From NCBI RefSeq assembly GCF_053078305.1, contig NZ_CP166879.1: a stretch of 64,000 nt of DNA; one strand, given 5' to 3'. Shown here piece by piece: positions 1 through 23,180 of this stretch (positions within the stretch are counted from its first letter, which is position 1; every line of letters begins with the position of its first letter). The position numbers and the translations under genes were made by a program. A model generated the notes under the pieces. It was not told the DNA's origin, did not search any database, and saw nothing but the letters and a program-made list of their open reading frames with translations.

Positions 1-150
1 ACCCGTGGGGCCAATCAGTTTTACAGCGTCATGGAACGGCTGAAGATGCTCGATTCCCTGCAGGCAACACAGCTTCAGTCGGCCATTGTTAAAGCCATTT
101 ATGTCTATCATCTCCCCGTAGTTGTCCGCATCGTTCGCCAACTCCACTGA
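1..150 (+). CDS. B: phage portal protein (lambda gpB-like), upstream part; 5' partial at window edge and interrupted after codon at nt 96, then 18 foreign codons to a stop
   Basis: Frame 1 reads ...FYSVMERLKMLDSLQATQLQSAIVKA, continuous with MYAATIESELD at 11936; matches remembered lambda portal. Confidence 0.75.
   Translation, partial: TRGANQFYSVMERLKMLDSLQATQLQSAIVKAIYVYHLPVVVRIVRQLH
91..98. other. left junction core repeat AAAGCCAT (putative attL core; extended 12/13 match to nt 103)
   Basis: Identical 8-mer at 11930-11937 exactly where the portal reading frame is broken and resumed. Confidence 0.6.
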
Positions 151-227
151 AACCCTTGCTGCGGCTGGAATGTCGTTTTCCATACTTTTGATGACCGTTC
201 ATCACACTTCCAGGTTTTCGCGGTTTT

Positions 228-280
228 GTGTATTGCAATGTGTATTGCAAATTGGCGATCGGGATGGGTGTGTATTGCAA
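228..280 (+). repeat. three direct copies of GTGTATTGCAA upstream of int (putative arm-type recombinase binding sites)
   Basis: Copies at 228-238, 240-250, 270-280; two more copies at 11835-11857 near the right end. Confidence 0.55.
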
Positions 281-298
281 ATCTCTTGAGGGCTGTTA

Positions 299-1540
299 AT
301 GGCTATTGAAAACAAACTCAGTGACAAACTGTTAAAGAGTCTTGTCGGAAAACGGCAGGACAAACAAAAAACAATAGCGGATGGGCGCGGGTTGTCTGTG
401 CGTGTAAGCATGGTTGGGGGGATCAGCTTTGTTTTTTACTATCGTCTTGGTGGCAGGGAATCCCCTCCGGTATGGCTTACACTTGGGCGCTATCCTGATA
501 TGTCTCTTGCAACAGCCAGGCGCATGCGTGATCAGTGCCGTGAGTGGCTGGCTGAAAATCTGGACCCCCGCAGGCAAATAAAACTTGCCGCCGAAAAAAC
601 CATGCAACCAGTGACCGTAAGGGATGCGCTGTTTTACTGGTACGACAATCACGCCACAACAGCCAGAAAAGAGCATGAATATTTAATAAAACGATTTGAA
701 AAGCATATCTTCCCCTATATCGGTGATATGGCTATAGAACAGTGCAAATTACACACATGGCTTGCCGTCTTTGACAGGATCAAAAAAAATGCGCCTGTTA
801 TGTCTGGTGCAATTTTTCTTGATATCAAACAGGCGTTGCGTTTTTGTCGCGTCAGGCAATACATCGCGTGCGATCCCTTTGGCGATATTAACGTAAGTTA
901 TGTCGGGCGCTCATCCGGTATAAGGGATCGCGTTCTTAATATCAATGAAACAGCGGATGTATGGTCTTATGCTTACGGTAATAATTTGCTGACACTGTCA
1001 TCAATACATAACAGAAGAATAATGGTTATCTGCCTGGTGTTTGGTTGCCGTCAGCAGGAGGCGAGGTTATCCACATGGGACGAATGGGATTTAAAAAACT
1101 GGGTATGGACAGTCCCAAAAGAGCACAGCAAAAACAAGGAGGCCATAGTAAGGCCTGTTCCTGACGGCATAAAACAATGGCTCGTTAATCTTTACGCAGA
1201 AACAAAAAATCGCGGTTATGTTGTCGGTTGTGCTTTGCAAAGGGCGACAATAACAGGGGCTGCAAACAGAATATGCAGGCGTCTTGGTCATGATATTAAT
1301 GGCTTGTGGTGCATACATGATTTCAGGCGCACATTTTCCACTGCGCTTAATGATATGGGGGCGGATCCTTATATTGTCGAACTTCTTTTAGGTCATAAAG
1401 TGAAAGGGGTTGCCGGTGTTTACAATAAAAGCAGGCATATAAAGAAAAAACTTGAGGTGCTTAATATGTGGGTTAATTACCTTAATACGATAGCAGGATT
1501 TAACAACAACGTTATCGAGCTTAATAAAGAGGTGGTGTGA
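299..1540 (+). CDS. int: tyrosine-type site-specific integrase (P4-like family)
   Basis: 413 aa; N-terminal arm-binding-like region, C-terminal HDFRRT...LLGH...GVAGVY catalytic motifs; position at element end. Confidence 0.85.
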   Translation: MAIENKLSDKLLKSLVGKRQDKQKTIADGRGLSVRVSMVGGISFVFYYRLGGRESPPVWLTLGRYPDMSLATARRMRDQCREWLAENLDPRRQIKLAAEKTMQPVTVRDALFYWYDNHATTARKEHEYLIKRFEKHIFPYIGDMAIEQCKLHTWLAVFDRIKKNAPVMSGAIFLDIKQALRFCRVRQYIACDPFGDINVSYVGRSSGIRDRVLNINETADVWSYAYGNNLLTLSSIHNRRIMVICLVFGCRQQEARLSTWDEWDLKNWVWTVPKEHSKNKEAIVRPVPDGIKQWLVNLYAETKNRGYVVGCALQRATITGAANRICRRLGHDINGLWCIHDFRRTFSTALNDMGADPYIVELLLGHKVKGVAGVYNKSRHIKKKLEVLNMWVNYLNTIAGFNNNVIELNKEVV

Positions 1541-1541
1541 T

Positions 1542-1799
1542 ATGGCAATTTATTCTCTTGTTGATGAAAACGATTTGCGCACAATGAAGGACATTGATCG
1601 GTTCATTCGTGAAAAAGAGTGCATAGCACTTACCACGCTGGCAAACTCAACACGCTGGAAAATGGAGCAGGCAGGTAAATTCCCGCGACGTATCAAGATC
1701 GGTGAACGTGCGGCAGGGTATCGACTTTCAGAGGTTCAGGCATGGATCCGTGGTGAGTGGCATCCTGGATGGAAACCTGGAAAAACAAAACAGCAATAA
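1542..1799 (+). CDS. alpA: AlpA-family phage transcriptional regulator / excisionase-like HTH protein
   Basis: 85 aa, overlaps int stop, pattern typical of AlpA (CP4-57 regulatory protein) family. Confidence 0.7.
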   Translation: MAIYSLVDENDLRTMKDIDRFIREKECIALTTLANSTRWKMEQAGKFPRRIKIGERAAGYRLSEVQAWIRGEWHPGWKPGKTKQQ

Positions 1800-1853
1800 C
1801 CAGTAAATAACGCCCCTCATCAAGAGGGGTTTTTGTCTATAGGGTAAAACGCG

Positions 1854-2432
1854 ATGAATAAAAATATTGCCGTGACGGGCAAGGGGTACGCTCGTCCAGT
1901 GAAAAAATTCTGTGATATTCGTGATCTTGTCGTTCTGCGCTTTGATGGTGTGAGCGTTCGCGTGGTGTATGTGAACGGCGATCCGTGGTTTGTTGCCGTT
2001 GACGTGTGCGCTGCGCTGGAAATTGTTGATCACAAGGTTGCGTTACGCCGTCTCGATGATGATGAAAAGGGGGAGTGTTTAATACCCACCCCAGGTGGAA
2101 ATCAAACAATGCGAACGGTATGCGAGTCAGGGTTCTACAAACTAATCGCCAGAAGTCGGAAAGCTGTTACTCCTGGCACGTTCGCCCGTCGTTTCAGTAA
2201 CTGGGTATTCAGAAATGTGATACCAGGTATCAGAAAAACGGGGGCTTATGGTATCCCGTGGGGGGCATTACAGGATTTTTCCCGCCGTAAAGAGCAATAT
2301 CAAATAAGTGCCAGCGAGAAGGGGAGGGAGCTACAGGCATGTAAGCGCAAAAAACGTGAACTGGAGGAAGAAGAAAAAAGGCTGATACGTGAATATCAGC
2401 CTGAGTTTTACTTTGGTGAGCGTATTCAGTAA
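1854..2432 (+). CDS. Bro-N domain protein (phage antirepressor-like)
   Basis: 192 aa; N-terminal FDGVSVRVVYVNGDPWFVAVDVCAALEI resembles Bro-N/antirepressor domain. Confidence 0.55.
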   Translation: MNKNIAVTGKGYARPVKKFCDIRDLVVLRFDGVSVRVVYVNGDPWFVAVDVCAALEIVDHKVALRRLDDDEKGECLIPTPGGNQTMRTVCESGFYKLIARSRKAVTPGTFARRFSNWVFRNVIPGIRKTGAYGIPWGALQDFSRRKEQYQISASEKGRELQACKRKKRELEEEEKRLIREYQPEFYFGERIQ

Positions 2433-2770
2433 CCACACGCGGTGCTGATTATACGGTACATCGTGTTAACCGAGAAGCTACCCACCAGCAAGGCAAAATC
2501 TTCTGCTAAAAAATGACATATGGCCAGTCGTCCGGAAAGCATGAAATTTTACAAAAATGGAAAATGAAGATTTTTATTGTGCTGGTGGGTAAAAACAAAA
2601 AGCGCCCCGTTGCCGGAGCGCCCTTGTGAACAATTAACCTGCTGCGAAAAAATTGGATCAGTGCAGGGAAATTATATCAACTGTGTGAAGAAGCGCCACA
2701 ATTGCCAGTTTAGCTTTGCGGCGAACGCGTCAATAAAGAATATTCTTTCTTTAAATTCTGTTTGTGTATT

Positions 2771-2800
2771 TTTTCGTAGTTTTTCGTAGTTTTTCGTAAG
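2771..2800. repeat. tandem repeat TTTTTCGTAG x3
   Basis: Three perfect 10-bp units in the intergenic gap between convergent genes. Confidence 0.6.
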
Positions 2801-2895
2801 GAGAAAGAGCGGCGCGTATGCACCGCTAAGGAGTTTATTTTCATGACTTATGCAGCTTTCAATCTTAGCACCGCCGTAGCTGGTGGACAAGGCTA

Positions 2896-3123
2896 TCAGC
2901 CAGGCGGTCGGTTTTTAGTGGCTTTTAACCGCCGTGGGTATTTCTCGACAAAATCTTCAAGGGCAAATTTTTCTGGTGGCACTAAGCGCGGCGCTGGTGG
3001 TGGTATTTTTGTTCTGGTTAGTTCTTCCTCAAGTCTGGCGCAGGCTTCTAACTGCCTTTGCCGGATGATTTCATCATCTTGCGTTTGCGTGTCTTGTATT
3101 GGTGATAGTGTGTTGTTGGTCAT
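2896..3123 (-). CDS. hypothetical protein
   Basis: 75-aa ORF co-directional with RHH gene; preferred over overlapping low-complexity + strand ORF. Confidence 0.35.
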   Translation of the reverse strand: MTNNTLSPIQDTQTQDDEIIRQRQLEACARLEEELTRTKIPPPAPRLVPPEKFALEDFVEKYPRRLKATKNRPPG

Positions 3124-3180
3124 GATACTGCCCTGTAAAGCAATGCGCCGGAGTACCTCACGCCACGGCGCTGATAGTGA

Positions 3181-3486
3181 TTATTCTGATTCTTGGGTCT
3201 TGCGACGCTGGAGTTCTTCGCGTGCAACGGTGACAAGTTGCCCGATTTCTTCCGCTGCTTTGATGCCGATTTGTTCGACCTTAGCCAGAGCATCCAGTGA
3301 AGACACAAGGGGATTTTCTCCGCTGCCTTCTGCCTGGCGGCGGGCGATTTCACCGCGCATGGCGGTTACTATGAATCCGGCGTTGCTTTCACCGTCCAGT
3401 TTTACGGATTCCATGCCTTCAATAACATCATGCGGGATCCGAGCTGTCAGTGATTGTGATTTTGCGTTTTTTGAACCTGTAGCCAT
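3181..3486 (-). CDS. ribbon-helix-helix (CopG/Arc-like) DNA-binding protein, putative element repressor
   Basis: SLTARIPHDVIEGMESV beta-strand/helix pattern; ATG at 3486 with GAGAGGA RBS; divergent from rightward operon. Confidence 0.5.
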   Translation of the reverse strand: MATGSKNAKSQSLTARIPHDVIEGMESVKLDGESNAGFIVTAMRGEIARRQAEGSGENPLVSSLDALAKVEQIGIKAAEEIGQLVTVAREELQRRKTQESE

Positions 3487-3700
3487 CTGTAATCCTCTCA
3501 ATGAAAGTGTAAGACAATATACACATAAAAAGTCTTACATAAAAGCATTGACATGTAAGCCACCTATAAATAAAGTTACTTACACCTTGTTAATGCAAGG
3601 TGCAGAAACGACGAAACCCGGCAGTGCGCTAACACTAACCGGGCTTCTAACCACCAACGATAGAAAGCGTATCGAGGTAGCTATGAGAAATCATACCACA
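3487..3700. promoter_or_regulatory. divergent promoter/operator region with repeated TGTAAGACA / GTCTTACAT / ACATGTAAG motifs
   Basis: AT-rich intergenic region between leftward RHH gene and rightward operon, repeated half-sites. Confidence 0.45.
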
Positions 3701-4045
3701 CACCCGCAAGGGCGGGACTCGCACAACCTGAATAAATACATCTGGCGTTTTCTGGCCCGAAAAAACCAGTTGATCGCCAGTGTCGAAAATAGCTATGATT
3801 CCCGCGCACCTCATAAAACGGGTGCCGGGATTGGCGTCCTGGGCAAAACTGAAGCGCATAACACGCGCCCCGCGTGTTTTTTTGTGCCGCATAGTCACAC
3901 CTTATCAATGGTGGGCTGTACGGGGGCGGAGCAATCCGCGCCGGTTTCTTCAGTGTCCGGTTACGCCAACCCTGTACAGTCCGCCACCAGCGAAATTGGC
4001 GTTTCCGGTGGCGGTTATCTTAACCACACTGAGGAGGCTGCCAAC

Positions 4046-4237
4046 ATGGCTACTATCCCTACCCTTGTACATTCTCAAACCGCCTTTCTCTGGCGCTTTA
4101 TCATCTTTGGCGCGTCAGACCATCAAATCATCCACGTCACCGCCTGGACGGAACGCGAAGCGCGTAGCCGTTGCCCGTCCGGTTGTGTTGCTGTATTCGC
4201 CGCCCGTATTCGTCAGGAGGTGTGCCATGTGCAATAA
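4046..4237 (+). CDS. Icd-like small protein (P4 cell-division-inhibitor family), tentative
   Basis: 63 aa, GAGGAGG RBS at 4031-4037; resembles remembered Icd-like proteins of P4-type elements. Confidence 0.4.
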   Translation: MATIPTLVHSQTAFLWRFIIFGASDHQIIHVTAWTEREARSRCPSGCVAVFAARIRQEVCHVQ

Positions 4238-4484
4238 AACCACACCGGACGCAGCCGCCGCGCTCACTACACTGATGCACGCGCTGATTGATATTTCTGT
4301 TATTGCTGACAGGGCGCATAAGCACGCCACCAGTGAAACAGAATATGCCGGGGCTTTCGTTCCTCATTCGCTGGCGGTTATGCAACTTAGTGCTGATATG
4401 GCGCTGAATGAGGCCAAAGCTATCCTGATTTCTGATTGTGAAAATGGGGGGGGGTTATGCGTGATGATCGTTTTAATGCCCTGA
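4227..4484 (+). CDS. hypothetical protein
   Basis: ATG overlapping previous stop, CAGGAGG RBS; operon context. Confidence 0.45.
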   Translation: MCNKTTPDAAAALTTLMHALIDISVIADRAHKHATSETEYAGAFVPHSLAVMQLSADMALNEAKAILISDCENGGGLCVMIVLMP

Positions 4485-4678
4485 AACAGGAGTTTGATGG
4501 TGCGCCTGATGATGCAGGTGATGCGCTTTCGTCAATATCCGAACTGATAAGAGTGGCCTTTTTCTTACTTGGCACGAAAGAATATAAATCAACTGGAATA
4601 GACGTACTGAATATTACTGCTGATTATGCGGAATATATGGCAGAAGTGGATTTAAGAAAGATAACGGACAGGGGGTAA
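4457..4678 (+). CDS. hypothetical protein
   Basis: 73 aa, G-rich RBS upstream, overlaps previous gene end. Confidence 0.45.
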   Translation: MRDDRFNALKQEFDGAPDDAGDALSSISELIRVAFFLLGTKEYKSTGIDVLNITADYAEYMAEVDLRKITDRG

Positions 4679-4679
4679 T

Positions 4680-4913
4680 ATGCGTGATATTTACCACGAA
4701 ACAATAGACCGCGCATTTAGTGCCCTTGCTTACGCTGAAGGTATGTACGAAATATTGCAAATGTGTCTGGAAACATTTGGCGATAATGAGCGTGATGTAA
4801 AGAAGGCGCGGATTATTAAATCACTGATAACTCTCCTTGAACCTGTAATAACAGAGTTGCAGGAAATAGACTTATTGCACGACAGATATAACGAACAGCA
4901 CACCGGAGAATAA
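4680..4913 (+). CDS. hypothetical protein
   Basis: 77 aa, AGGGGG RBS, tightly packed operon. Confidence 0.45.
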   Translation: MRDIYHETIDRAFSALAYAEGMYEILQMCLETFGDNERDVKKARIIKSLITLLEPVITELQEIDLLHDRYNEQHTGE

Positions 4914-4918
4914 AAATA

Positions 4919-5218
4919 ATGAAACTTAAATATCCTGGCTTAACTGCCAGTGGCAACACTCACCCTAAATTTACGCGCGGTGATATTTACCGCGACCAGT
5001 ACGGCGGCACGGTAATGATTAAGGGCGTGGCGGGACGGTGCGTAACTTACCGCCGTGAAGGCTACGAATATGATTGCGTGATGCCTGTTTATCAGTTCCG
5101 GCGTGATTTTTCTCTGGTACAGACCGCGCCGCATAACGTGCCCACCAGCAACGCCAGGGCACGGGCAAACATCCAGAAGCTGAAAACCATGATTAACGGA
5201 TTCAGGGGTAAAAAATGA
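4919..5218 (+). CDS. hypothetical protein
   Basis: 99 aa, GGAG RBS, stop overlaps next start. Confidence 0.45.
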   Translation: MKLKYPGLTASGNTHPKFTRGDIYRDQYGGTVMIKGVAGRCVTYRREGYEYDCVMPVYQFRRDFSLVQTAPHNVPTSNARARANIQKLKTMINGFRGKK

Positions 5219-6624
5219 AACTGGCACCGAACGTAAAACGATTACCGAAAGATAAATACACCGAAGCGGTTATTTTTGCGGGTATTGATGCTCACTCATT
5301 CGCAGAGCATTACATCATTGCACAGGCCAAAAAAGCAGGCGATCCAGTCCCTCCCGTTTATCTGGGGCGTTATCAGTTAAGCGAACTGGATAACCTCCAG
5401 ATTGTTGATGATGGGCGATACAGGGCGACGGTGATACGCGCCGGAAATATTGAAGAGCCGCAGCTGTTAACCATCGCCACGAAACTGGCGAGCGCCGGAG
5501 TCCAGGAGGCGCGGCTACTTTCTGAAAATTTCGAATTGCTGGAGGAATGGAGCGACCAGCTTCCACGGCTTAGGGAGGCATGGGAACGCGGGGAAAGCCT
5601 GGTCATGAAAAAAATTCCCCAGCGAAAAACCACGCTACCGATGAGCGTTGGATCTACCGGATACGACACACAGCTTGATTACGTGGTAAAGGGGATTATT
5701 CCGGCATCGTCGCTTTGCAGCATATACGGGGCGAGCGGTTCCTATAAATCATTCCTTGCCGGATCGTGGGCGTGTCACGTTTCCACGGGCCGCCAGTGGG
5801 GAGGCCGCAGGGTGGCGCATGGCGCTGTTCTCTATGTGGTTGGTGAAGGCGGTATCGGCGTTCCGCGTCGTGTAAAAGCCTGGGAGGTTGTGCACGGTGA
5901 GCAGGTGAAAAATCTGTATCTGGTAAACCGTCCCATCTTTCCGGCTGTCCCGCTTGATGTTGATGAACTGGTTATTGCTGCCAGTCAGGTGGAGAGGGAA
6001 ACGGGTAAACCTGTTCGCATGATTATTCTGGACACGCTGGCGCGTTGCTTTGGCGGCAATGATGAAAATGACTCCCGCGACATGGGGGCATTTATCCGTG
6101 GTTGTGACGAGCTTAAACGGCGCACAGGGGCTACGGTGCTGGTGGTTCACCATTCCGGCAAGGATGAAACAAAGGGGGCGCGTGGTTCCAGTGCATTTCG
6201 TGCATCACTGGACGCTGAATACCGGATACGCAGGGAGGACGCAGGAAGCGAAGCGCTGGTTATCTCATGCACCAAAATGAAGGACGCGGAGGAACTCAAA
6301 GAGGCTGCCTATGATTTGCGGGTGGTGGAGCTTTTTACCGACGCTGACGGGGAGTTAATTACGTCGCTGGTGGTGGTGGATAAGCCGCGCCCTCCCGTTG
6401 AACTGGAGCGCATCGAGGAGGCAGGCAACAAGACGGAAAACCATACCGCGCTATGGGGGTGCATCCGTTCACGCACACAGAACGGCGACAAGTGCACGAT
6501 CCCGCTGTTACGTGACGATATGAAAAAGCTGGGGTATGACACAAAACACCTTAAACGATGGTTAGCCAAACTGGAAAAAGACGACGTGATCTACATTGAC
6601 GGTGATGATGTAGGACCACTGTAA
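5215..6624 (+). CDS. replication initiation protein, RecA-like ATPase (AAA_25/RepA-type) with C-terminal DNA-binding domain
   Basis: 469 aa; Walker A-like GASGSYKS, Walker B MIILD, LVVHHSGKD motif; iterons immediately downstream. Confidence 0.7.
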   Translation: MKLAPNVKRLPKDKYTEAVIFAGIDAHSFAEHYIIAQAKKAGDPVPPVYLGRYQLSELDNLQIVDDGRYRATVIRAGNIEEPQLLTIATKLASAGVQEARLLSENFELLEEWSDQLPRLREAWERGESLVMKKIPQRKTTLPMSVGSTGYDTQLDYVVKGIIPASSLCSIYGASGSYKSFLAGSWACHVSTGRQWGGRRVAHGAVLYVVGEGGIGVPRRVKAWEVVHGEQVKNLYLVNRPIFPAVPLDVDELVIAASQVERETGKPVRMIILDTLARCFGGNDENDSRDMGAFIRGCDELKRRTGATVLVVHHSGKDETKGARGSSAFRASLDAEYRIRREDAGSEALVISCTKMKDAEELKEAAYDLRVVELFTDADGELITSLVVVDKPRPPVELERIEEAGNKTENHTALWGCIRSRTQNGDKCTIPLLRDDMKKLGYDTKHLKRWLAKLEKDDVIYIDGDDVGPL

Positions 6625-6830
6625 AAAGTGGGCATTAAAAGTGGGAAAGGTGGGCGATTTAACGTAATTTTAACAAAATCACCCACTTTCCCACGTGTAT
6701 ATATCCCAAAAAGTGGGCACTAAAAAAATACCTATGAAACAAGATGATATAAATCCCAAACTTCCCACGTTGGACGAAGTGGGAAAACGTAAAAAGTGGG
6801 CGAAAAAAGTGGGTAGAGGTGGGCGAATGA
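6625..6830. repeat. iteron array, putative replication origin of the satellite
   Basis: About ten copies of AAGTGGG(C/A) / GGTGGGCGA in both orientations directly downstream of the rep gene. Confidence 0.7.
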
Positions 6831-7078
6831 CTCAAAAACACAGAGACAGAACAGAGCCAAAATATAAAGCGTTAGACATGACAGAGCACGCTTTAAAGGT
6901 GGCAATCAGGGTAATAGACCGCCACACGCGGGAAGGATACGCGAAGGAACATCCCGACCTGATAAGCGCATTCATGACCACAGCGGCGGCAAACTTTGCC
7001 ACGCTGACAGAACGGGAGATAGCCGAAGCGGAACAGGTAACAACCATCAACGTTAAAACCGGAGAGGTGGAATCATGA
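6827..7078 (+). CDS. hypothetical protein
   Basis: 83 aa from ATG at 6827 (upstream part of track ORF lies in the iterons). Confidence 0.45.
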   Translation: MTQKHRDRTEPKYKALDMTEHALKVAIRVIDRHTREGYAKEHPDLISAFMTTAAANFATLTEREIAEAEQVTTINVKTGEVES

Positions 7079-7485
7079 CAGCACAGATAGCCGCTTACGG
7101 GCGGCTGGTGGACGACCCGCAGGTAAAACAAACCAGCAAGGGCACACCGATGACGCTGGCGCGTATGGCGGTATCTCTGCCATGCAGCCAGGCACAGGAC
7201 GGGCAGGCTACGTTATGGCTATCAGTGATGGCATTTGGTAAGCAGGCCGACTTCCTGGCTAAACATCAAAAAGGCGATGTTGCCAGCGTATCCGGCACGA
7301 TGCAGGTAAGCCAGTGGACCAGACAGAACGGGGAAACGCGGCAGGGTTATCAGGTTATTGCAGACAGTGTAATCAGTGCCCGTGCTGCCCGTCCTGGCGG
7401 GAGCAGACGTACAACCACAGGCACACAGGGTAATCAGCCACCAGCGGGAGGCGATGACCCTTACGGTGACGGTATTCCGTTCTGA
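7075..7485 (+). CDS. ssb: single-stranded DNA-binding protein
   Basis: OB-fold pattern and acidic C-terminal tail DDPYGDGIPF typical of SSB. Confidence 0.75.
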   Translation: MTAQIAAYGRLVDDPQVKQTSKGTPMTLARMAVSLPCSQAQDGQATLWLSVMAFGKQADFLAKHQKGDVASVSGTMQVSQWTRQNGETRQGYQVIADSVISARAARPGGSRRTTTGTQGNQPPAGGDDPYGDGIPF

Positions 7486-7495
7486 GGGGGTGACG

Positions 7496-7768
7496 ATGGT
7501 ACATGACCGCATAGCGGAGGAACTCGAGGCAAAAGGCTTTTACCGGAGGGCGGCGGCGCGATGGGGTGAAGTTATGCAGCTGGTGGAGACAGACAAGGAA
7601 CGGCATCAGGTTACGATGCGACGGCTGGAATGTTCCAGGAAGGCACAGAGGCCACCGGAGCCGCCGGATAACTTCGGAGACCTGAAAAAAGCAGTAGATC
7701 GCACTTATGCCGAAATGGGTATGGATGGTGTAAGCGATGAAATATGGCGTAATTACCCAGACAGCTAA
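7496..7768 (+). CDS. PerC-family transcriptional regulator
   Basis: 90 aa; IAEELEAKGFYRRAAARW motif resembles PerC family. Confidence 0.5.
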   Translation: MVHDRIAEELEAKGFYRRAAARWGEVMQLVETDKERHQVTMRRLECSRKAQRPPEPPDNFGDLKKAVDRTYAEMGMDGVSDEIWRNYPDS

Positions 7769-7774
7769 TCAACA

Positions 7775-7796
7775 GCCGGAGAAATCCGGCTTTTTT
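7775..7796 (+). terminator. rho-independent terminator (GCCGGAGAAATCCGGC + T-run)
   Basis: Perfect hairpin then TTTTTT; identical hairpin recurs at 10049-10071. Confidence 0.65.
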
Positions 7797-8007
7797 GTAC
7801 CCAAAAAAAGCCCGATAAGTACAGGAGGCATCTTATCGGGCTTTTGCATATGAGGTTTTTTTGGTGCACTGACACACATGATCGGGGTAATCATTTCATA
7901 ATTTGCAACACAACTCAACATCATTGCACAAAATGCAATCCTGATTATAATCAGAGCTGGATGAACATCCAGTTCTGATTTTTTAAGTCAAAGAGGAATT
8001 TCTTACT

Positions 8008-8214
8008 ATGGCTGAAGAGAAAAAAGGCGGTGTTTCGGTGTACATAAGCCCCGAAATCGTGGAGGTGCTCAAGCAGCGCCACAAAAAAAACTATGAGGCT
8101 GGCGTAGCGGCTGGACTGGATCCGCTGATGACGCCGGAGCCGTCGATAGGTTCACTTGTGCGCTCTTATTTACTTGCGGCGCTTGGGATGCATAAAAATT
8201 ATGGTGGTGAATAA
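8008..8214 (+). CDS. hypothetical protein
   Basis: 68 aa, AAGAGG RBS, first gene of capsid operon. Confidence 0.45.
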   Translation: MAEEKKGGVSVYISPEIVEVLKQRHKKNYEAGVAAGLDPLMTPEPSIGSLVRSYLLAALGMHKNYGGE

Positions 8215-9269
8215 TGACAGTAAAAGCAATGGCACTTACAACTAACCAGCTTTTCGCGTACCTGAATCGCGGGGATATTGCAGAATTTAAATTCAGTCCG
8301 CTGTTTACCACGCTGTTTTTCCCGAACGTGGCGACCTTCAACACCCAGAACATCATGCTGGACACCCTGGACATTGAAGAGGTTACGATGTCAGCGTTCT
8401 GTTCGCCTATGGTGGGTAGTCAGGTCCAGCGCGATAAAGGGTACGAAACCAGCACGATTAAACCAGGCTACATGAAACCCAAACACGAAATCGATCCAAC
8501 AAAAACCATCATGCGCATGGCTGGAGAAGATCCGGCACAGCTTAACGACCCTACCTACCGCCGTATGCGCCTGATTACTGGCAACATGCGCCGCCAGATA
8601 AACGCCATTAAAGCGCGCGTGGAATGGCTGGCGGTGAATGCGATAACGACCGGAAAAAACATCATTGAGGGCGAAGGCATAGAACGCTATGAAATCGACT
8701 GGAAAATACCGGAAAACTGCATCATAGAGCAGGCCAAGGGTAAAAAATGGTCCGAGCATGATAAAGATATTTACGATCCAATCTATGACATCGAACTATA
8801 CGCAGATCAGGCAGGTTGCCCCGCCAACGTCATGATTATGGGCGCTGAGGTATGGCGCACGTTACGCAGCTTTAAAAAATTCCGCGAACTGTACGATCTT
8901 TCCCGTGGTTCAGAATCCGCCGCAGAACTGGCCTGTAAAAACCTGGGTGAAGTAGTGAGCTTTAAAGGCTATCTGGGCGATATTGCCCTTATCGTCTATT
9001 CCGGCAAATACACTGACAGCGACGGTACCGAAAAATATTTCCTTGAGCCTGATTTGCTGGTCCTGGGTAACACCAACAATAAAGGGCTGGTGGCCTATGG
9101 TGCGATTATGGATCAGGAAGCGGTAAGAACGGGCGCAACGCAAAACATGTTCTACCCGAAAAACTGGATTGAAGACGGCGATCCGGCGATTGAGTACGTT
9201 CAGACGCACAGCGCACCGCAGCCGGTACCGGCAGATATTCGCAAATTTGTTACCGTCAAAATTGCTTAA
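8214..9269 (+). CDS. major capsid protein, lambda gpE-like paralog encoded by the satellite
   Basis: 351 aa; clear similarity to helper E at 14646-15674 (PGYVKPKHE, EDPAQLNDP, VVSFKGY, VLGNT motifs). Confidence 0.85.
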   Translation: MTVKAMALTTNQLFAYLNRGDIAEFKFSPLFTTLFFPNVATFNTQNIMLDTLDIEEVTMSAFCSPMVGSQVQRDKGYETSTIKPGYMKPKHEIDPTKTIMRMAGEDPAQLNDPTYRRMRLITGNMRRQINAIKARVEWLAVNAITTGKNIIEGEGIERYEIDWKIPENCIIEQAKGKKWSEHDKDIYDPIYDIELYADQAGCPANVMIMGAEVWRTLRSFKKFRELYDLSRGSESAAELACKNLGEVVSFKGYLGDIALIVYSGKYTDSDGTEKYFLEPDLLVLGNTNNKGLVAYGAIMDQEAVRTGATQNMFYPKNWIEDGDPAIEYVQTHSAPQPVPADIRKFVTVKIA

Positions 9270-9280
9270 CGGGGGATTCT

Positions 9281-9616
9281 ATGGACACTCCATACATTGA
9301 GTTATTTGCAGGCAGTCAGCAGGTATCCACGACGCTGGTACATTTTGCCGCTGATGCTGGCGTTATTCAGGAATTTACCCCGCTGATGCTGGCGGACAAT
9401 GGCGAGTTTAAGCCGTGGGATGGTCAGGAATCTGGCAAGGCTGTTTATCTGACCTCGTACCCCGTGGACACGTCAAAGCAGAAATCAGCACAGTGTTACA
9501 AGACGGGGATATTTAATATCGCCGCCGTAAACTGGCCTGAGAGCGCCGACACTGACGCGAAAAAATGCGCCGCCTTTGCGGGTTCTGGCGTATCCGTTCA
9601 GCCGCTGGCGCGATAA
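9281..9616 (+). CDS. head decoration protein, lambda gpD-like paralog
   Basis: 111 aa; TPLMLA...WDGQ...YKSG/TGIF...WPES...AFAG pattern shared with helper D at 14241-14588. Confidence 0.75.
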   Translation: MDTPYIELFAGSQQVSTTLVHFAADAGVIQEFTPLMLADNGEFKPWDGQESGKAVYLTSYPVDTSKQKSAQCYKTGIFNIAAVNWPESADTDAKKCAAFAGSGVSVQPLAR

Positions 9617-9628
9617 GCAGGGGAAACG

Positions 9629-10042
9629 ATGGCAACGAATGAAAGCATCATGGCGCTACCGCTGGCGAGTAAATTTAAAGCAGAAGCGCGGGCAATGGCT
9701 GACAGAGGTTTATCAACCTACGAGGCCGTATATCAACTCAACAAACTGGAAGAGCAGGACAAGCCGCGCGCTGATGCGATTATGGCGCTTCATGAACATA
9801 ACGACTATCAGCCGCTGTTACGTGCAATGGCAAACGTGCCATGTATTAGCGTCGATAATGCTCGTGAAATCCTGAACATGACCATAGAGCAGGAGCGCCC
9901 AAAGGTTGCGCCGGAGCTTACCGCAGCCTTTGAAAACTTTATGGACATGCACAGCCCGAAAGCCGTATCACCCGGCATGGCATACGACGGCAGAAACCAG
10001 GGCGATGAAGGCGACGTCGATCGCATACTGAAAACCATCTGA
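9629..10042 (+). CDS. scaffold protein, Nu3-like (scaffold domain only, no protease domain)
   Basis: 137 aa; C-terminus AAFENFMDMHSPKAV...DEGDVD parallels helper C/Nu3 C-terminus ALFEHFMANHSPAAV...ADGDAD. Confidence 0.65.
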   Translation: MATNESIMALPLASKFKAEARAMADRGLSTYEAVYQLNKLEEQDKPRADAIMALHEHNDYQPLLRAMANVPCISVDNAREILNMTIEQERPKVAPELTAAFENFMDMHSPKAVSPGMAYDGRNQGDEGDVDRILKTI

Positions 10043-10048
10043 CATAAG

Positions 10049-10071
10049 GCCGGAGAAATCCGGCTTTTTTT
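10049..10071 (+). terminator. rho-independent terminator after capsid operon
   Basis: GCCGGAGAAATCCGGC hairpin followed by TTTTTTT. Confidence 0.65.
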
Positions 10072-10130
10072 ACGGGTCCTTTCCGGCATATGGACCCGTT
10101 ACGGGGCGGCGACCTCGCGGTTTTTCGCTA
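10072..10130 (+). other. cos site 1 (cosN GGGCGGCGACCT at 10104-10115 with cosQ-like and cosB-like flanks), rightward orientation
   Basis: Exact lambda 12-nt cohesive-end sequence and lambda-like flanks ACGGGTCCTTTCCGG...CGCGGTTTTTCGCTATTTATGA. Confidence 0.8.
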
Positions 10131-10248
10131 TTTATGAGCTTTTTTCGGGTGCTGGTGGTGGTTTTGTTGTTCGCTCTATCTCTATGAATAAAAAGGGAAA
10201 GATAAAACCAATACACCAACCTGAAACATTACTTAAGTGGGGATATTG

Positions 10249-10791
10249 ATGAAATCGCACCTGATGAACAAAAAAAACATGGCGCAAAGCTGCCGTGTAA
10301 GTGCGACAGCGTTCGACAAGTGGGGAGTGACTCCCGTTGAACGTAAAGGACGCGAGGCTTTTTACGATGTTGCCAGCGTGATAGACAATCGGGTAAGCAA
10401 TGCAATTAACCAGGTTACAAACGACAAAGGCGAGATTGATGATGATGAACTCTTACGAGTCAGGATCAGATTACTGACCGCCCAGGCTGAGGCGCAGGAA
10501 CTTAAAAACGAGCGCGATCGCGGTGACGTAATTGATACTGAGTTTTGCCTGTACGCGCTTTCAAAGCTGGCGAGTCAGATTTCTTCAATCATGGACAGTT
10601 TGCCGCTTACCATGCAAAGGCGCTTCCCGCAGATTACTCCCGCTATGCTGGATGGGCTTAAAAGGGAAGTGGTTAAAGCCTGTAATGCCAGTGCCACAGT
10701 TGCCGACAACCTCCCGAAGATACTGGCTGATTACCTGATGGAAACTACCGGAGACGTACCGGAGAAGTTGCTACAGAAGAAAGGCGAGTAA
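10249..10791 (+). CDS. terminase small subunit, lambda Nu1-like
   Basis: LTAQAEAQELKNERDRGDVIDTEFCLYALSKLASQISSIMDSLPLTMQRRFP parallels remembered lambda Nu1; start uncertain (10237/10249/10264). Confidence 0.75.
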   Translation: MKSHLMNKKNMAQSCRVSATAFDKWGVTPVERKGREAFYDVASVIDNRVSNAINQVTNDKGEIDDDELLRVRIRLLTAQAEAQELKNERDRGDVIDTEFCLYALSKLASQISSIMDSLPLTMQRRFPQITPAMLDGLKREVVKACNASATVADNLPKILADYLMETTGDVPEKLLQKKGE

Positions 10792-10962
10792 CAGACGCGC
10801 AATTATTGAACAAAAGTAAGGCCCGACATGAAATCACCCAAAAATGCCTTTTTCATGCGTTTGTATGTCTGACCTTTTACGGTTTCGATATTATAAAAAA
10901 CAAATAGTTACGCTCGAGAGGTACCGACACGCATTTTTCAGGAAAATTTTCATAAACAGATA

Positions 10963-11015
10963 AAAACCGCGAGGTCGCCGCCCCGTAACGGGCCATAATT
11001 CCAGGAAGGACCCGA
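10963..11015 (-). other. cos site 2 (cosN reverse complement at 10972-10983), inverted relative to cos site 1
   Basis: AGGTCGCCGCCC plus lambda-like flanks on the minus strand. Confidence 0.75.
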
Positions 11016-11047
11016 CGACACCAGGCTATCAGAACGATGAGGGCACA

Positions 11048-11329
11048 ATGACAGAAGCCGAACTACTGGGATTAATCCGCTACGTTACCGGAATCAGCCA
11101 GCAGCATGACGAACAGGCCACGCAGCCGGACAGCGTGACCGCTGAAAATTATGCGCGTGTTGTTGCTGAGGTGATGCGCCGTGATGGTATCCAGCTTAAT
11201 GATGCAGATATGCGCGACATACGGATCCGCGTTCTTGAAATGCTGGCCTACCGTCGCCGCGTGCAGACGTACAGGGAAAAAGCAAAAATAACGTACCAGT
11301 GGAAGAAGCCGGAGCGATTACGGCGGTAA
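11048..11329 (+). CDS. hypothetical protein
   Basis: 93-aa ORF, last gene before the right junction. Confidence 0.4.
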   Translation: MTEAELLGLIRYVTGISQQHDEQATQPDSVTAENYARVVAEVMRRDGIQLNDADMRDIRIRVLEMLAYRRRVQTYREKAKITYQWKKPERLRR

Positions 11330-11834
11330 CTTGCTGATATTCCCGATAACGCAAAATTGCGCTCTGTCCTAACCCGTTGATATTTTCGGGAACAGCCAAC
11401 GGCTGAGGCCGGAACAACGATTATCTTTCAGATAGTCAGAGCTACGAAATTTTCGTAGTTTAATTACTCGCCAGTTTATCGTTAACTCGTTGATATTTTC
11501 GGTAACCTCAATTTGAGGAGATCGGAAACATAACCCTTCACATTCTGAATGGTTATAATGACCACTCAGACCATCAAGGCAACCATAACGAACATCGTTA
11601 CGGTTGGAGCTTTTACCCCACTGGGGGGAAGGTGCACATCTGGATCATCATTACCGTGATCAAGGGTATGTAAAACCCACCAGCCTGATTAACTGTTAAC
11701 CGGAAAAAAGCCAGGTAGCCAATCTCGATATGGGGATCCCCATATCGACATTAACGCCCCCTAGAACTGCGCATATCTGCATATAAAAACATCCACCAGC
11801 TTTATGACGGATGCCGCTCATCTGATAAATAATC

Positions 11835-11857
11835 GTGTATTGCAATGTGTATTGCGA
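11835..11857 (+). repeat. two direct copies of GTGTATTGCAA/GTGTATTGCGA near right end (arm-type sites)
   Basis: Same motif as the triplet at 228-280. Confidence 0.55.
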
Positions 11858-11929
11858 CTCCTTTAAACGATAGGTTTGAGCATTCGTAATGTACTGTTTT
11901 TAAATTTTATTTTTTCCTGTCTTTTCATA

Positions 11930-11937
11930 AAAGCCAT
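11930..11937. other. right junction core repeat AAAGCCAT (putative attR core)
   Basis: Identical to 91-98; portal frame resumes here. Confidence 0.6.
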
Positions 11938-12709
11938 GTATGCAGCGACGATTGAAAGTGAACTTGATACCGAAAAGGCCTTTGAATATATCGCCGGTGC
12001 GCCGCAGGGGCAGAAGGATAATCCGCTTATTAATATTCTGGATAAGTTCTCCACCTGGTATGACACGAATATCGTGACGCTGGGCGGTGTCAAAATTCCG
12101 CACCTTTTCCCCGGTGATGATCTGAAACTTCAGACCGCGCAGGATTCAGACAATGGATTTTCGGCGCTTGAACAGGCGCTGCTGCGGTATATCGCCGCCG
12201 GTCTTGGCGTTTCCTACGAACAGTTGTCCCGTGATTACTCGAAGGTCAGTTATTCAAGTGCCCGCGCCTCCGCCAATGAGTCGTGGCGCTATTTTATGGG
12301 ACGACGAAAATTTATTGCAGCCCGGCTGGCCACGCAGATGTTTTCCTGCTGGCTGGAAGAGGCACTTCTTCGGGGGATTATCCGTCCGCCACGGGCACGT
12401 TTTGATTTTTATCAGGCGCGTTCAGCCTGGTCGCGGGCAGAGTGGATTGGCGCAGGAAGAATGGCCATTGACGGGCTCAAGGAGGTCCAGGAATCAGTGA
12501 TGCGCATTGAGGCCGGACTGAGCACGTATGAGAAAGAGCTGGCGCTGATGGGTGAGGATTATCAGGACATTTTCCGCCAGCAGGTCAGGGAATCCGCAGA
12601 GCGGGAAAAAGCCGGACTCTCACGTCCGGTGTGGATAGCGCAGGCGTATCAGCAGCAGATAGCAGAGAGCCGCAGGCCGGAAGAGGAGACAACACCACGT
12701 GAGACGTAA
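11930..12709 (+). CDS. B: phage portal protein (lambda gpB-like), downstream part resuming after the insertion
   Basis: KAMYAATIESELD...YIAAGLGVSYEQLSR...MAIDGLKEVQE resembles remembered lambda portal C-terminal half. Confidence 0.8.
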   Translation, partial: KAMYAATIESELDTEKAFEYIAGAPQGQKDNPLINILDKFSTWYDTNIVTLGGVKIPHLFPGDDLKLQTAQDSDNGFSALEQALLRYIAAGLGVSYEQLSRDYSKVSYSSARASANESWRYFMGRRKFIAARLATQMFSCWLEEALLRGIIRPPRARFDFYQARSAWSRAEWIGAGRMAIDGLKEVQESVMRIEAGLSTYEKELALMGEDYQDIFRQQVRESAEREKAGLSRPVWIAQAYQQQIAESRRPEEETTPRET

Positions 12710-16470: not shown

Positions 16471-16953
16471 ATGGCGATAAAAGGGCTTGATCAGGCGATT
16501 GATAATCTGAGCCGGGTTCGTAAAAACGCCATTCCTGCTGCTTCAGCAATGGCCATTAACCGCGTGGCCACAACGGCAATAAATCAGTCTGCGTCACAGG
16601 TTGCCCGTGAGACAAAGGTACGCCGGAAACTGGTAAAGGAAAGGGCCAGGCTGAAAAGGGCCACGGTAAAAAATCCGCAGGCCAGAATCAAAGTTAACCG
16701 GGGGGATTTGCCTGTAATCAGGCTGGGTAATGCGCGGGTTGTCCTGTCCCGACGCAGGCGACGTAAAAAGGGGCAGCGTTCATCCCTGAAAGGTGGCGGC
16801 AGTGTGCTTGTGGTGGGTAACCGTCGCATTCCCGGCGCGTTTATTCAGCAACTGAAAAATGGGCGGTGGCATGTCATGCAGCGTGTGGCCGGGAAAAACC
16901 GTTACCCCATTGATGTGGTAAAAATCCCGATGGCGGTGCCTGTAACCAGGTAA
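16471..16953 (+). pseudogene. Z: tail protein Z, upstream part truncated by Mu-like insertion (ends with 3 foreign codons)
   Basis: Matches remembered lambda Z to ...IPMAVP, then VTR-stop from inserted DNA; remainder found at 56278-56391. Confidence 0.8.
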
Positions 16954-17245: not shown

Positions 17246-17764
17246 TTACGCTTTGGCTTCTTTATGGGTTAAATTGAAATGATGCTCCTTGGTTTCATCT
17301 CCCTCGAAAATCTCTCTAACCTTTTGATCTGATAAATTATTAAGGCTCAATGCTGCCAGGCGTCGAATACCTGTTAAAGCGATCAACTCTTGATTCTCTT
17401 GATTGCAGAATTCCAGCAATTTTTCTACCCCTTTCCTTCTCAAGGTGTAAATAACTAATTCTTGCTCTTCTTGGCTCAAAGTGTCGATGAGTTCGAGCAA
17501 CTCGCTATTGCCACCGTTCTTTTGAGGGGGCTGGTGTTTTATTTCTGCACTACCTGTAATGATGGAAACAACATGTGCAGGTAAGTCGCTTAAACGGTAG
17601 GCAAATGCTCTCCCTCTGATACCAGGTGTAGTTACCGAACGTTTTTCCCATCCTTCATTTTTTGCTCGTTTATGAAGCCCAGCCAGAGATGAAGGAAGAC
17701 CTCCAACCCCCAACAAGTCACTGGCAAGGATCCATTCTTGGTCAAGGATCATATCAAACTCCAT
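17246..17764 (-). CDS. c: Mu-type repressor c
   Basis: 172 aa leftward gene at left end; N-terminal DNA-binding domain shared with transposase N-terminus (LPSSLAGLHK). Confidence 0.7.
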   Translation of the reverse strand: MEFDMILDQEWILASDLLGVGGLPSSLAGLHKRAKNEGWEKRSVTTPGIRGRAFAYRLSDLPAHVVSIITGSAEIKHQPPQKNGGNSELLELIDTLSQEEQELVIYTLRRKGVEKLLEFCNQENQELIALTGIRRLAALSLNNLSDQKVREIFEGDETKEHHFNLTHKEAKA

Positions 17765-17981: not shown

Positions 17982-18227
17982 GTGAGTCTTATTGAAGATT
18001 GGTCTTCCGCCGATATAAAGGCAGCCTTAGAAAAACGCGATACCAATTTGTCACGTTTATCAAGGGAAAATAATTTGCAGCCTAGGACTTTGGGTAATGC
18101 TTTGCGAGTTCCCTACCCTAAAGGTGAAAAGATAATTGCTAGGGCTATAGGTGTAGAGCCACAGGTTATTTGGCCTACTAGATATGAACGACGTGCGCGG
18201 AGGAAATATGTGGGTTGCAATGACTGA
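17982..18227 (+). CDS. ner: Ner-like DNA-binding protein
   Basis: 81 aa; GTG start with AGGGGG RBS; resembles Ner/Nlp family. Confidence 0.7.
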   Translation: MSLIEDWSSADIKAALEKRDTNLSRLSRENNLQPRTLGNALRVPYPKGEKIIARAIGVEPQVIWPTRYERRARRKYVGCND

Positions 18228-22649: not shown

Positions 22650-23180
22650 ATGGCAAAACGCGTTACAAAATTAAAGGCCGCAGCAGAGGCGGCACCGCAG
22701 ACCCGTGAAGAGGTCAGCCGCGATATCCGCACCCTGGGCGATATTCAGCGAGAGGCGCTGCGCCTGGAAACAGCGATGAATGATGAAGTGGCAGAAATCA
22801 CCGCCCGTTATACGCCGCAGATTGAAAACCTTAAAAAAGAAATCAAAGTGCTTTTTAAGGGGATTCAGGACTGGTGCAAAACCAACCGTGATGAGCTGAC
22901 GAACGGCGGCAAAACCAAAACTGCCAATCTGACCACCGGAACAGTGTCATGGCGGCTGGGAAATCCATCATGCAGCGTCAGCCGTGATGTGGAAGGTGTG
23001 ATTGAAATGCTGCGCCGTATGGGGCTTGAGCGATTCATCCGCACGAAAGAGGAAGTGAACAAGGAAGCGGTCCTGGCGGAGCCGGATGCAGTGAAAGGCA
23101 TTGCCGGTATTAAGGTGAATAAAGGCGCTGAAAGTTTTTATGTCGAGCCTTTTGAACAGGACGCCGGACTGAATAAATAA
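22650..23180 (+). CDS. gam: host-nuclease inhibitor Gam (Mu-type)
   Basis: 176 aa; DIQREALRLETAMNDEVAEIT...ANLTTGTVSWR...RFIRTKEEVNKEA matches remembered Mu Gam. Confidence 0.8.
   Translation: MAKRVTKLKAAAEAAPQTREEVSRDIRTLGDIQREALRLETAMNDEVAEITARYTPQIENLKKEIKVLFKGIQDWCKTNRDELTNGGKTKTANLTTGTVSWRLGNPSCSVSRDVEGVIEMLRRMGLERFIRTKEEVNKEAVLAEPDAVKGIAGIKVNKGAESFYVEPFEQDAGLNK

What the first reader, a model, noticed from the sequence alone, without database searches (positions are those of the whole stretch)
10049..11015. Two lambda-type cos sites in inverted orientation flanking a Nu1-like small terminase gene
cos1 (cosN at 10104-10115) carries the exact lambda cohesive-end 12-mer with lambda-like cosQ and cosB flanks, followed by a Nu1-like gene. 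About 870 bp downstream a second complete cos-like site (cosN reverse complement at 10972-10983) lies inverted. The two cosB-like arms differ: cos1 has ...TTTATGAGCTTTTTTCGGG, cos2 has ...TTTATGAAAATTTTCC. Inverted cos pairs are unusual; one may be cognate to the satellite Nu1-like protein and the other a helper-type site acting as decoy, terminator or reverse packaging start.
Basis: seen in the sequence. Interest (0 to 1): 0.82.

Follow-up and report, generated by a model that had tools for sequence, protein, structure and literature searches.

The report
Phage satellite with two opposed cos sites
This is the DNA-packaging module of a known kind of E. coli phage satellite (EcCICFT073-family PICI), whose paired, oppositely oriented cos sites have been published and tested; the new detail is that the second site is a complete cos of a different helper-phage type.

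Summary
The exact lambda cohesive-end 12-mer lies at 10104-10115 (+) and 10972-10983 (-), inside a 72-nt inverted repeat. Between the two sites is a full-length Nu1-family small terminase gene (10249-10791).

The locus is the packaging module of an 11.8-kb EcCICFT073-family PICI, here inserted in the portal gene of a lambdoid prophage. EcCICFT073 has the same cos1 / packaging gene / inverted cos2 layout, and both of its sites were tested experimentally (Fillol-Salom 2018, 2019). So an inverted cos pair is normal for this family.

Two differences from the published element:
- The gene between the sites is a true Nu1 homologue, not Rpp.
- cos2 carries a complete phage-21-type cosB (R3, I1, R2, R1).

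Among related satellites, the cos1 cosB is constant. The cos2 slot is always inverted when present, but it holds different helper cos classes or has been lost.

Best reading: cos1 plus the satellite TerS is a private packaging route, and cos2 is a second route through an unmodified helper terminase. This function is inferred, not shown.

Novelty is low to moderate.

The parts
91..11942 (+). Whole satellite (EcCICFT073-family PICI / helper-embedded satellite), inserted in the lambdoid portal gene. The att core AAAGCCAT(T/G)TATG lies at 91-103 and 11930-11942.
   Evidence: The portal reading frame stops near 100 and resumes near 11934. The gene set is int, AlpA, Bro-N, RepA-type helicase, SSB, PerC, capsid E, decoration protein and Nu1. 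62 E. coli genomes share the same portal/integrase junction.
10049..10071 (+). Hairpin plus T-run (GCCGGAGAAATCCGGC, then T7) after the 137-aa Nu3-like ORF. It looks like a terminator and abuts cosQ1.
   Evidence: Read from the sequence. The same 22-mer also occurs at 7775-7796 (D9). The terminator scan did not flag it.
10074..10080 (+). cosQ1 core, GGGTCCT
   Evidence: It also aligns with real helper cos sites.
10104..10115 (+). cosN1, exact lambda 12-nt cohesive end
10116..10236 (+). cosB1, the satellite-private cosB. Its conserved motifs are GGGTGCTGGTGGTGGTTTTGTTGTTC (10147-10172) and, in the opposite sense, ATACACCAACCTGAAAC (10211-10227).
   Evidence: Nearly invariant across 50 distinct cos1 sequences of TerS-type satellites. 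It resembles the cosB of class-D lambdoid prophages, GGTGGTTGTTGTT...ACAACAACC. It is unlike lambda, phage 21, or classes A and B.
10249..10791 (+). Satellite small terminase: a full-length Nu1 homologue of 180 aa, including the C-terminal region that in lambda binds TerL. It is not Rpp.
   Evidence: No similarity to RppA. The closest phage TerS is class D, at 48% identity.
10818..10971 (-). cosB2, phage-21 class. R3 core is at 10921-10931, I1 (IHF site) at 10898-10910, R2 at 10865-10874 and R1 at 10818-10833.
   Evidence: About 80% identical to phage 21 bases 1-165. Placed against the annotated phage 21 subsites in the alignments. The R3 core CGTGTCGGTAC and R1 TTTCATGTCGGGCCTT are identical to phage 21.
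10972..10983 (-). cosN2, exact lambda 12-nt cohesive end on the minus strand
11007..11013 (-). cosQ2 core, GGGTCCT on the minus strand
11048..11329 (+). orf93, the conserved last gene of these satellites; function unknown
   Evidence: PHROG 1561, E 1.5e-55. No Pfam match. It is also the last gene of the cf-PICI at roxA-phoQ in O157:H7.
8214..10042 (+). Upstream late genes: lambda-E-like capsid (8214-9269), decoration protein (9281-9616), and a 137-aa protein with weak similarity to the C-terminal part of head-maturation-protease profiles, i.e. Nu3/scaffold-like (9629-10042).
   Evidence: Same gene order as c1499/c1500 in EcCICFT073.

Best explanation
The region is the packaging module of an EcCICFT073-family phage satellite, a Gram-negative cos-type PICI. 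Here it is a helper-embedded satellite in a lambdoid portal gene.

Route 1 (inferred from homology):
- cos1 has helper-like cosQ and cosN, plus a private cosB.
- The satellite's own Nu1-type TerS reads that private cosB through its N-terminal winged helix.
- Its lambda-like C-terminal domain recruits the helper's large terminase.
- Satellite concatemers are then cut at cosN1 and packaged rightwards.

Route 2 (inferred):
- cos2 is a complete cos of a real helper-phage class, phage-21 type in this window.
- A phage-21-class helper terminase can use it directly, packaging leftwards.
- Because lambda-type cos sites work in one direction only, an inverted cos2 should not terminate packaging that started at cos1, and cos1 should not terminate packaging that started at cos2.

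Shown here: what the element is, the anatomy of both sites, that each cosB belongs to a recognisable class, and that the cos2 slot varies between satellites.
Shown by others, on the EcCICFT073 homologue: both cos sites are usable, and only the cosB of cos1 responds to the satellite's specificity protein.
Not shown: what cos2 does in this satellite.
For: Identity and architecture:
- The gene order matches EcCICFT073. In CFT073, cosN lies at L003 22559 (+) and 23298 (-), flanking rppA at 22660-23094. O55:H7 CB9615 has the same layout around a TerS gene.
- Published tests: each EcCICFT073 cos site cloned alone makes a plasmid transferable. Deleting cos1 lowers transfer, deleting cos2 raises it, and deleting both abolishes it. 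RppA acts only on the cosB of cos1.
- 555 of 5,426 complete E. coli genomes hold at least 80% of this cos1-terS-cos2-orf93 segment.

cos1 and the satellite TerS:
- The TerS is a full-length Nu1 homologue. Its C-terminus is of the lambda/A/D/E/F type (LL.(E/D)Y), not the 21/B type (WIDDFRR).
- cosB1 is nearly invariant among TerS-type satellites.

cos2 as a helper-class site:
- The window's cos2 keeps R3, I1, R2 and R1 of phage 21.
- CFT073's cos2 matches class-A prophage cos sites at 89%, and CB9615's cos2 matches class B.
- Among 80 TerS-type satellites, 41 have a full cos2, always inverted and at the same position. The cosB is of class 21, class B or a 21/E-like class.
- In 11 of those 41, cos2 has a different cohesive end, GGGCGGGAGCAT, and is 86-88% identical to the cos region of phage mEp460.
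- Each cosB class that I could compare with a phage (21, B, 21/E-like, A) keeps its own three R repeats.
- Two 99.8%-identical satellite copies sit in helpers with different TerS/cosB classes, A and lambda. This suggests the satellite does not depend on the helper's TerS class.
Against: - The phage-21-class cos2 matches neither of the two prophages that carry the satellite in this genome. Any benefit would need another helper, which I did not find.
- cos2 is dispensable. It is absent in 22 and partly deleted in 10 of the 73 related loci that can be scored. It is also absent from a satellite embedded in a phage-21-class helper in strain EC28.
- In EcCICFT073, deleting cos2 increased transfer by lambda and phi80. 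So cos2 can be a cost.
- There are no binding, cleavage or virion-end data for a TerS-type satellite.
- The argument about orientation rests on general knowledge of lambda, not on a test.
Confidence: 0.55

Rival explanations
1. cos2 is a by-product of recombination with helper phages at cos, where terminase makes double-strand breaks. It is tolerated but has no role of its own. Only cos1 and the satellite TerS matter for spread.
For: - cos2 is often lost or truncated: 32 of 73 loci that can be scored, and also EC28.
- Deleting it improves transfer of EcCICFT073.
- Its class does not match the resident helpers here.
- One locus (L041) shows phage-like sequence running through the cosN-proximal part, a sign of recent exchange with a class-B phage.
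Against: - In each cosB class that I could compare with a phage, cos2 keeps cosQ, an exact or near-exact cosN, the IHF site and all three R repeats.
- The slot and its orientation are the same in Rpp-type and TerS-type satellites.
- Several classes were acquired independently, one with a different cohesive end. A purely neutral scar is unlikely to do that.
Confidence: 0.25
2. cos2 is mainly an interference device. A helper-type cos on a high-copy replicating satellite draws helper terminase away from helper DNA. Cutting at both converging sites would also release the 0.87-kb terS segment and abort packaging.
For: - cos2 is a complete helper-class site.
- Satellites of this family interfere with helper packaging.
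- Deleting cos2 raises satellite transfer, which fits cos2 causing some unproductive events.
Against: - A complete cos would still package satellite DNA. Decoy and second-route functions therefore cannot be told apart from sequence.
- No interference phenotype has been reported for cos2. In EcCICFT073 interference maps to rppA.
Confidence: 0.15
3. The two inverted cos sites make the terS segment invertible: cutting at both sites and re-ligating could flip it, giving a switch for terS expression.
For: Only geometry. Cutting both sites leaves a fragment with two identical, non-complementary ends, which could rejoin to the rest in either orientation.
Against: All 80 related loci, plus CFT073 and CB9615, have cos1 upstream of terS on the same strand. 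CFT073, CB9615, EC28 and the source genome also show terS co-oriented with the capsid genes. No flipped form was seen.
Confidence: 0.03

Closest known systems
EcCICFT073 (E. coli CFT073 PICI; Fillol-Salom et al. 2018 ISME J, 2019 Mol Cell; Murialdo & Feiss 2022 Viruses)
   Same: - Same gene order: int, alpA, replication genes, SSB, PerC, capsid homologue, decoration protein, 137-aa protein, cos1, packaging-specificity gene, inverted cos2, orf93.
- Exact lambda cosN in both sites.
- The cosB of cos1 is private to the satellite.
   Different: - The gene between the sites is Rpp in EcCICFT073: 144 aa, no TerL-binding tail, acting as a heterodimer with the helper TerS. Here it is a full-length Nu1 homologue with no detectable similarity to RppA.
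- cos2 is class A in CFT073 and phage-21 class here.
- EcCICFT073 sits between roxA and phoQ; this element sits in a prophage portal gene.
- The main text of the papers does not mention the inverted orientation or that cos2 belongs to a helper class.
Phage 21 cos (cosQ-cosN-cosB with R3, I1, R2, R1) and phage lambda cos/Nu1
   Same: cos2 has the same cosN, the same spacing and the same order of subsites. Its R3 core and R1 are identical to phage 21. cos1 and terS are laid out like lambda cos and Nu1.
   Different: cos2 is not followed by a terminase gene. It points into the 3' end of the satellite terS. cosB1 has neither the lambda nor the phage 21 R sequences.
Helper-embedded satellites (Tommasini, Mageeney & Williams, bioRxiv 2022)
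   Same: Integrated in a lambdoid late gene and co-oriented with it. A doubled motif lies next to att. The gene content is PICI-like.
   Different: The element that paper describes, 11capE, is said to lack terS and to share one cos-like segment with its helper. This one has its own TerS and two cos sites, neither with a cosB of the resident helper's class.
SaPIs with their own small terminase (pac type), and cos SaPIs such as SaPIbov5 and SaPIbov4
   Same: The concept is the same: a satellite-encoded TerS redirects the helper's large terminase to satellite DNA. SaPIbov4 is also reported to have two putative cos sites.
   Different: A different terminase family and a different packaging mode. 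No sequence relationship was tested here.

Membership tests
Lambda-type cos site | cosN with the 12-nt cohesive-end sequence | tested here: met
   Exact GGGCGGCGACCT in both sites
Lambda-type cos site | cosQ (GGGTCCT) about 30 nt upstream of cosN on the same strand | tested here: met
   10074-10080 (+) and 11007-11013 (-). Same spacing as in helper cos sites.
Lambda-type cos site | cosB with R3, an IHF site, R2 (inverted) and R1 | tested here: met
   Met for cos2, which has all four phage-21 subsites. For cos1 only two opposed conserved motifs are seen, resembling class-D phage cosB.
Lambda-type cos site | Cleavage by terminase to give virion DNA ends | not testable with these tools
   Shown genetically only for the homologous sites of EcCICFT073
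Nu1-family small terminase | Sequence membership over the full length, including the C-terminal TerL-binding region | tested here: met
   PF07471, PHROG 57, aligned end to end with lambda Nu1
Rpp (redirecting phage packaging) proteins | Sequence similarity to RppA, RppB or RppC; length about 139-154 aa with no TerL-binding tail | tested here: not met
   No significant similarity to RppA (E 1.3). No match to any solved structure, although an RppC structure has been published. The protein is 180 aa with a Nu1-like tail.
Gram-negative PICI, EcCICFT073 type | About 10-15 kb, with int, alpA, its own replication module, no lysis or tail genes, and a packaging module at the right end | tested here: met
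   Synteny with CFT073 and CB9615. DNA identity about 91% to E. coli copies.
Gram-negative PICI, EcCICFT073 type | Induction and high-frequency transfer by a helper phage | not testable with these tools
   Shown only for EcCICFT073
Helper-embedded satellite | Integrated within a lambdoid late gene and co-oriented with it, with the target gene restored on excision | tested here: met
   The portal ORF is split at 91-103 and 11930-11942. Joining the two halves restores the reading ...SAIVKAMYAATIESE.... The helper genes Nu1, A, W and the 5' part of the portal gene lie upstream (L235).

The most novel reading that the evidence does not exclude
The position downstream of the satellite's packaging gene is an exchangeable slot. 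It holds a complete, inverted cos copied from real helper phages. I saw phage-21, A, B and 21/E-like cosB classes, and a mEp460-type cos with a different cohesive end.

Satellites of this family would then have two packaging routes. One is a private cos1 read by their own TerS or Rpp. The other is a swappable helper-class cos2, which widens the range of usable helpers to phages whose terminase the satellite protein cannot redirect.

This would also explain the published result that EcCICFT073 cos2 works poorly with lambda and phi80. That cos2 is class A, and it was never tested with a class-A helper.
Probability: 0.45. Interest if true: 0.55.

Novelty: new member of a known kind. Interest (0 to 1): 0.33.

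Why it matters
PICIs of this family are common in E. coli, including O157:H7 and O55:H7, and they move virulence and defence genes. How they are packaged decides which phages can spread them.

The paired cos sites are already known. If cos2 proves to be an exchangeable helper-type site, helper range could be predicted from sequence alone. It would also explain an odd published result, that deleting cos2 raises transfer. Finally, it would show that satellites combine a private packaging signal with borrowed ones.

For annotation, the practical lesson is that an inverted cos pair around a small packaging gene marks this satellite family.

Tried and rejected
- **Scan of species-representative genomes.** An exact 19-mer around cosN gave 27 loci, mostly chance matches in GC-rich genomes, and no inverted pairs. 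It was not useful, and it used the only scan of that collection.
- **Solved structures.** A search with the satellite TerS gave no match.
- **Pfam on orf93.** Nothing, even at E 10.
- **Walking upstream in the IMG/VR contig.** This was meant to reach the helper cos, but the stored stretch ends 867 nt upstream of the window. An exact-protein look-up of the integrase solved it.
- **Global percent identity to class the cosB sequences.** The background was too high, 0.55-0.7. I classed them by reading the R repeats instead.
- **First regular expression for a full cos2.** It was wrong by one base and was corrected.
- **Promoter and terminator scan.** It found nothing beyond the cosN palindromes themselves.
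- **Rejected: the gene is Rpp**.
- **Rejected: cos2 matches the resident helper**.
- **Rejected: cos2 and orf93 came from a phage as one block.** orf93 is a satellite gene that is also found in the cf-PICI of O157:H7.

Full report
**Observation.** The lambda cohesive-end 12-mer GGGCGGCGACCT occurs exactly twice in the window, at 10104-10115 on the plus strand and 10972-10983 on the minus strand. The copies lie in inverted arms of 72 nt, 82% complementary. Each arm has a cosQ-like GGGTCCT at the usual distance, and the conserved stretch that follows cosN in lambdoid phages. The 180-aa ORF between them (10249-10791) is a full-length Nu1 homologue.

**What the element is.**
- The region belongs to an 11.8-kb element running from about 91 to 11942.
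- Its genes are integrase, AlpA, Bro-N, a RepA-type helicase followed by iterons, SSB, PerC, a lambda-E-like capsid protein, a decoration protein, a 137-aa Nu3-like protein, the TerS, and a 93-aa last gene.
- It splits a lambdoid portal gene, which reads through correctly if the element is removed.
- The helper's Nu1, A, W and the 5' part of the portal gene lie just upstream in the source genome, GCA_000736735.1.
- This is the helper-embedded satellite configuration of Tommasini et al.. 62 complete E. coli genomes share the same junction.
- Gene order and sequence place the element in the EcCICFT073 family of Gram-negative PICIs.

**What is already known.**
- In CFT073 the same exact cosN occurs at L003 22559 (+) and 23298 (-), flanking rppA. 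In O55:H7 CB9615 the two sites flank a TerS gene, as they do here.
- Fillol-Salom et al. (2018) named these sites cos1 and cos2. Either site alone makes a plasmid transferable. Deleting cos1 lowers island transfer, deleting cos2 raises it, and deleting both abolishes it.
- Their 2019 paper showed that the RppA-TerS heterodimer recognises the cosB of cos1 and not that of cos2.
- Murialdo and Feiss (2022) analysed the cos-rpp layout.
- The inverted cos pair is therefore a published and tested feature of the family. At least 80% of this cos1-terS-cos2-orf93 segment is present in 555 of 5,426 complete E. coli genomes.

**What differs here.**
- *The gene between the sites.* It is not Rpp: there is no similarity to RppA and no match to any solved structure. 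It is a complete Nu1-type TerS. Its winged-helix region is closest to the TerS of class-D lambdoid prophages (48% identity). Its C-terminal tail is of the lambda/A/D/E/F type rather than the 21/B type.
- *cos1.* The cos1 cosB has conserved GGTGGTGG..GTTGTT and opposed ACACCAACC motifs. It is nearly invariant across 50 distinct satellite sequences and resembles class-D phage cosB.
- *cos2.* The papers report that no phage cosB could be recognised in either EcCICFT073 site. In this window, cos2 carries a complete phage-21-type cosB. The R3 core and R1 are identical to phage 21, and the IHF site and R2 are nearly so.

**Survey of helper cos classes.**
- Lambdoid prophages that share an identical 50-mer of this portal gene fall into at least five cosB classes.
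- Class A has CCATGTCCGGTT repeats and was the commonest, 32 of 62.
- Class B has TCAGATCC repeats (13 of 62). Phage-21 class accounts for 5, class D for 9, and a few belong to other classes.
- CFT073's cos2 is class A (89% identity), and CB9615's cos2 is class B.

**Survey of related satellites.** Among 80 TerS-type satellites from IMG/VR:
- 41 have a full cos2, always inverted and at the same position.
- The flanks are constant, but the cosB is of class 21, class B or a 21/E-like class.
- In 11 of the 41, cos2 has a different cohesive end, GGGCGGGAGCAT, and is 86-88% identical to the cos region of phage mEp460.
- 10 have a deletion that leaves only cosQ2 and part of cosN2.
- 22 have no cos2, and 7 are too short to score.
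- The embedded satellite of strain EC28 also has no cos2.

**The source genome.** Two satellite copies, 99.8% identical, sit in two different prophages. One helper has a class-A cos and TerS, the other a lambda-type cos and TerS. The phage-21-class cos2 matches neither.

**Interpretation.**
- cos1 with the satellite TerS is most simply a private initiation system. It needs only the helper's large terminase, in the way that SaPI small terminases do. This is inferred from homology and from the constant pairing of cosB1 with the TerS gene.
- cos2 is a complete cos of a real helper class.
- Three things point to a function as a second entry point for unmodified helper terminase: its full set of subsites in each cosB class that I could compare with a phage, the repeated exchange of classes within a fixed slot, and the presence of a foreign cohesive end in some satellites.
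- The inverted orientation would keep the two routes from terminating each other. This rests on the known directionality of lambda cos.
- Against a strong role: cos2 is often lost, it does not match the resident helpers here, and the published cos2 deletion increases transfer. A neutral recombination relic (0.25) or a decoy (0.15) therefore remain open.

**Verdict.** This is a real feature and was described correctly. It belongs to a known and experimentally studied satellite family, so the architecture is not new. The useful additions are the replacement of Rpp by a TerS and the helper-class, exchangeable nature of cos2. Both are sequence-level inferences that direct experiments could test.

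Noticed in passing
window 16471-56200: A Mu-like transposable prophage is inserted in the late region of the lambdoid helper, just after a shortened tail-completion ORF (16471-16953). It carries a repressor (17246-17764, minus strand), transposase A (18184-20292), transposition protein B (20364-21296), a large terminase (30348-32015), a tail sheath (39444-40946) and a Mom-like protein (55413-56150). Lambda-like tail genes resume near 56.3 kb. The helper is therefore interrupted twice and is probably defective.
   Followed up: partly
L234 (GCA_000736735.1 contig JPQG01000003.1), 9703-21242: The same genome holds a second copy of the satellite, 99.8% identical, in the portal gene of a different prophage with a lambda-type cos and Nu1. 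It has the same cos1 (19806, +) and cos2 (20674, -).
   Followed up: yes
window 91-103 and 11930-11942; 228-248 and 11835-11855: The att core AAAGCCAT(T/G)TATG lies inside the portal gene. The doubled motif GTGTATTGCAATGTGTATTGC occurs near both ends. It probably corresponds to the doubled attP motif reported for helper-embedded satellites.
   Followed up: partly
window 6621-6813: Repeats of AAAAAGTGGGCA, spaced about 84 nt apart, directly follow the RepA-type helicase gene (5215-6624). They are probably the satellite's replication origin.
   Followed up: no
window 7775-7796 and 10049-10070: An identical 22-nt hairpin plus T-run, GCCGGAGAAATCCGGCTTTTTT, occurs twice: once before the late gene block and once just before cos1. 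The terminator scan did not flag it.
   Followed up: no
L084-L092, L095, L096, L098, L102, L103 (IMG/VR loci), about 145 nt upstream of terS: Some related satellites have other cohesive-end sequences in cos1 (GGGCGGAAGGCG, GGGCGTCAGGCG, GGGCGGCAGACG) with the same private cosB. This suggests that cosN follows the helper's large terminase, while cosB follows the satellite's TerS.
   Followed up: partly
L073-L075, L077, L078, L080-L083, L093: A recurrent deletion joins the terS stop codon directly to the middle of cosN2 (GAGTAA-CCGCCGCCCCGTAACGGG). It removes cosB2 and part of cosN2 but keeps cosQ2.
   Followed up: partly
L236 (E. coli O157:H7 PNUSAE146131), 3515-3796: A homologue of orf93 is also the last gene of the capsid-forming PICI at the roxA-phoQ site, next to a P27-type TerS and a TerL. 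It is a conserved satellite gene of unknown function with no Pfam family.
   Followed up: partly
window 11370-11414 and 11483-11527: A 45-nt direct repeat, 73% identical (TAAC.CGTTGATATTTTCGG.AAC...), lies in the non-coding stretch between orf93 and attR.
   Followed up: no
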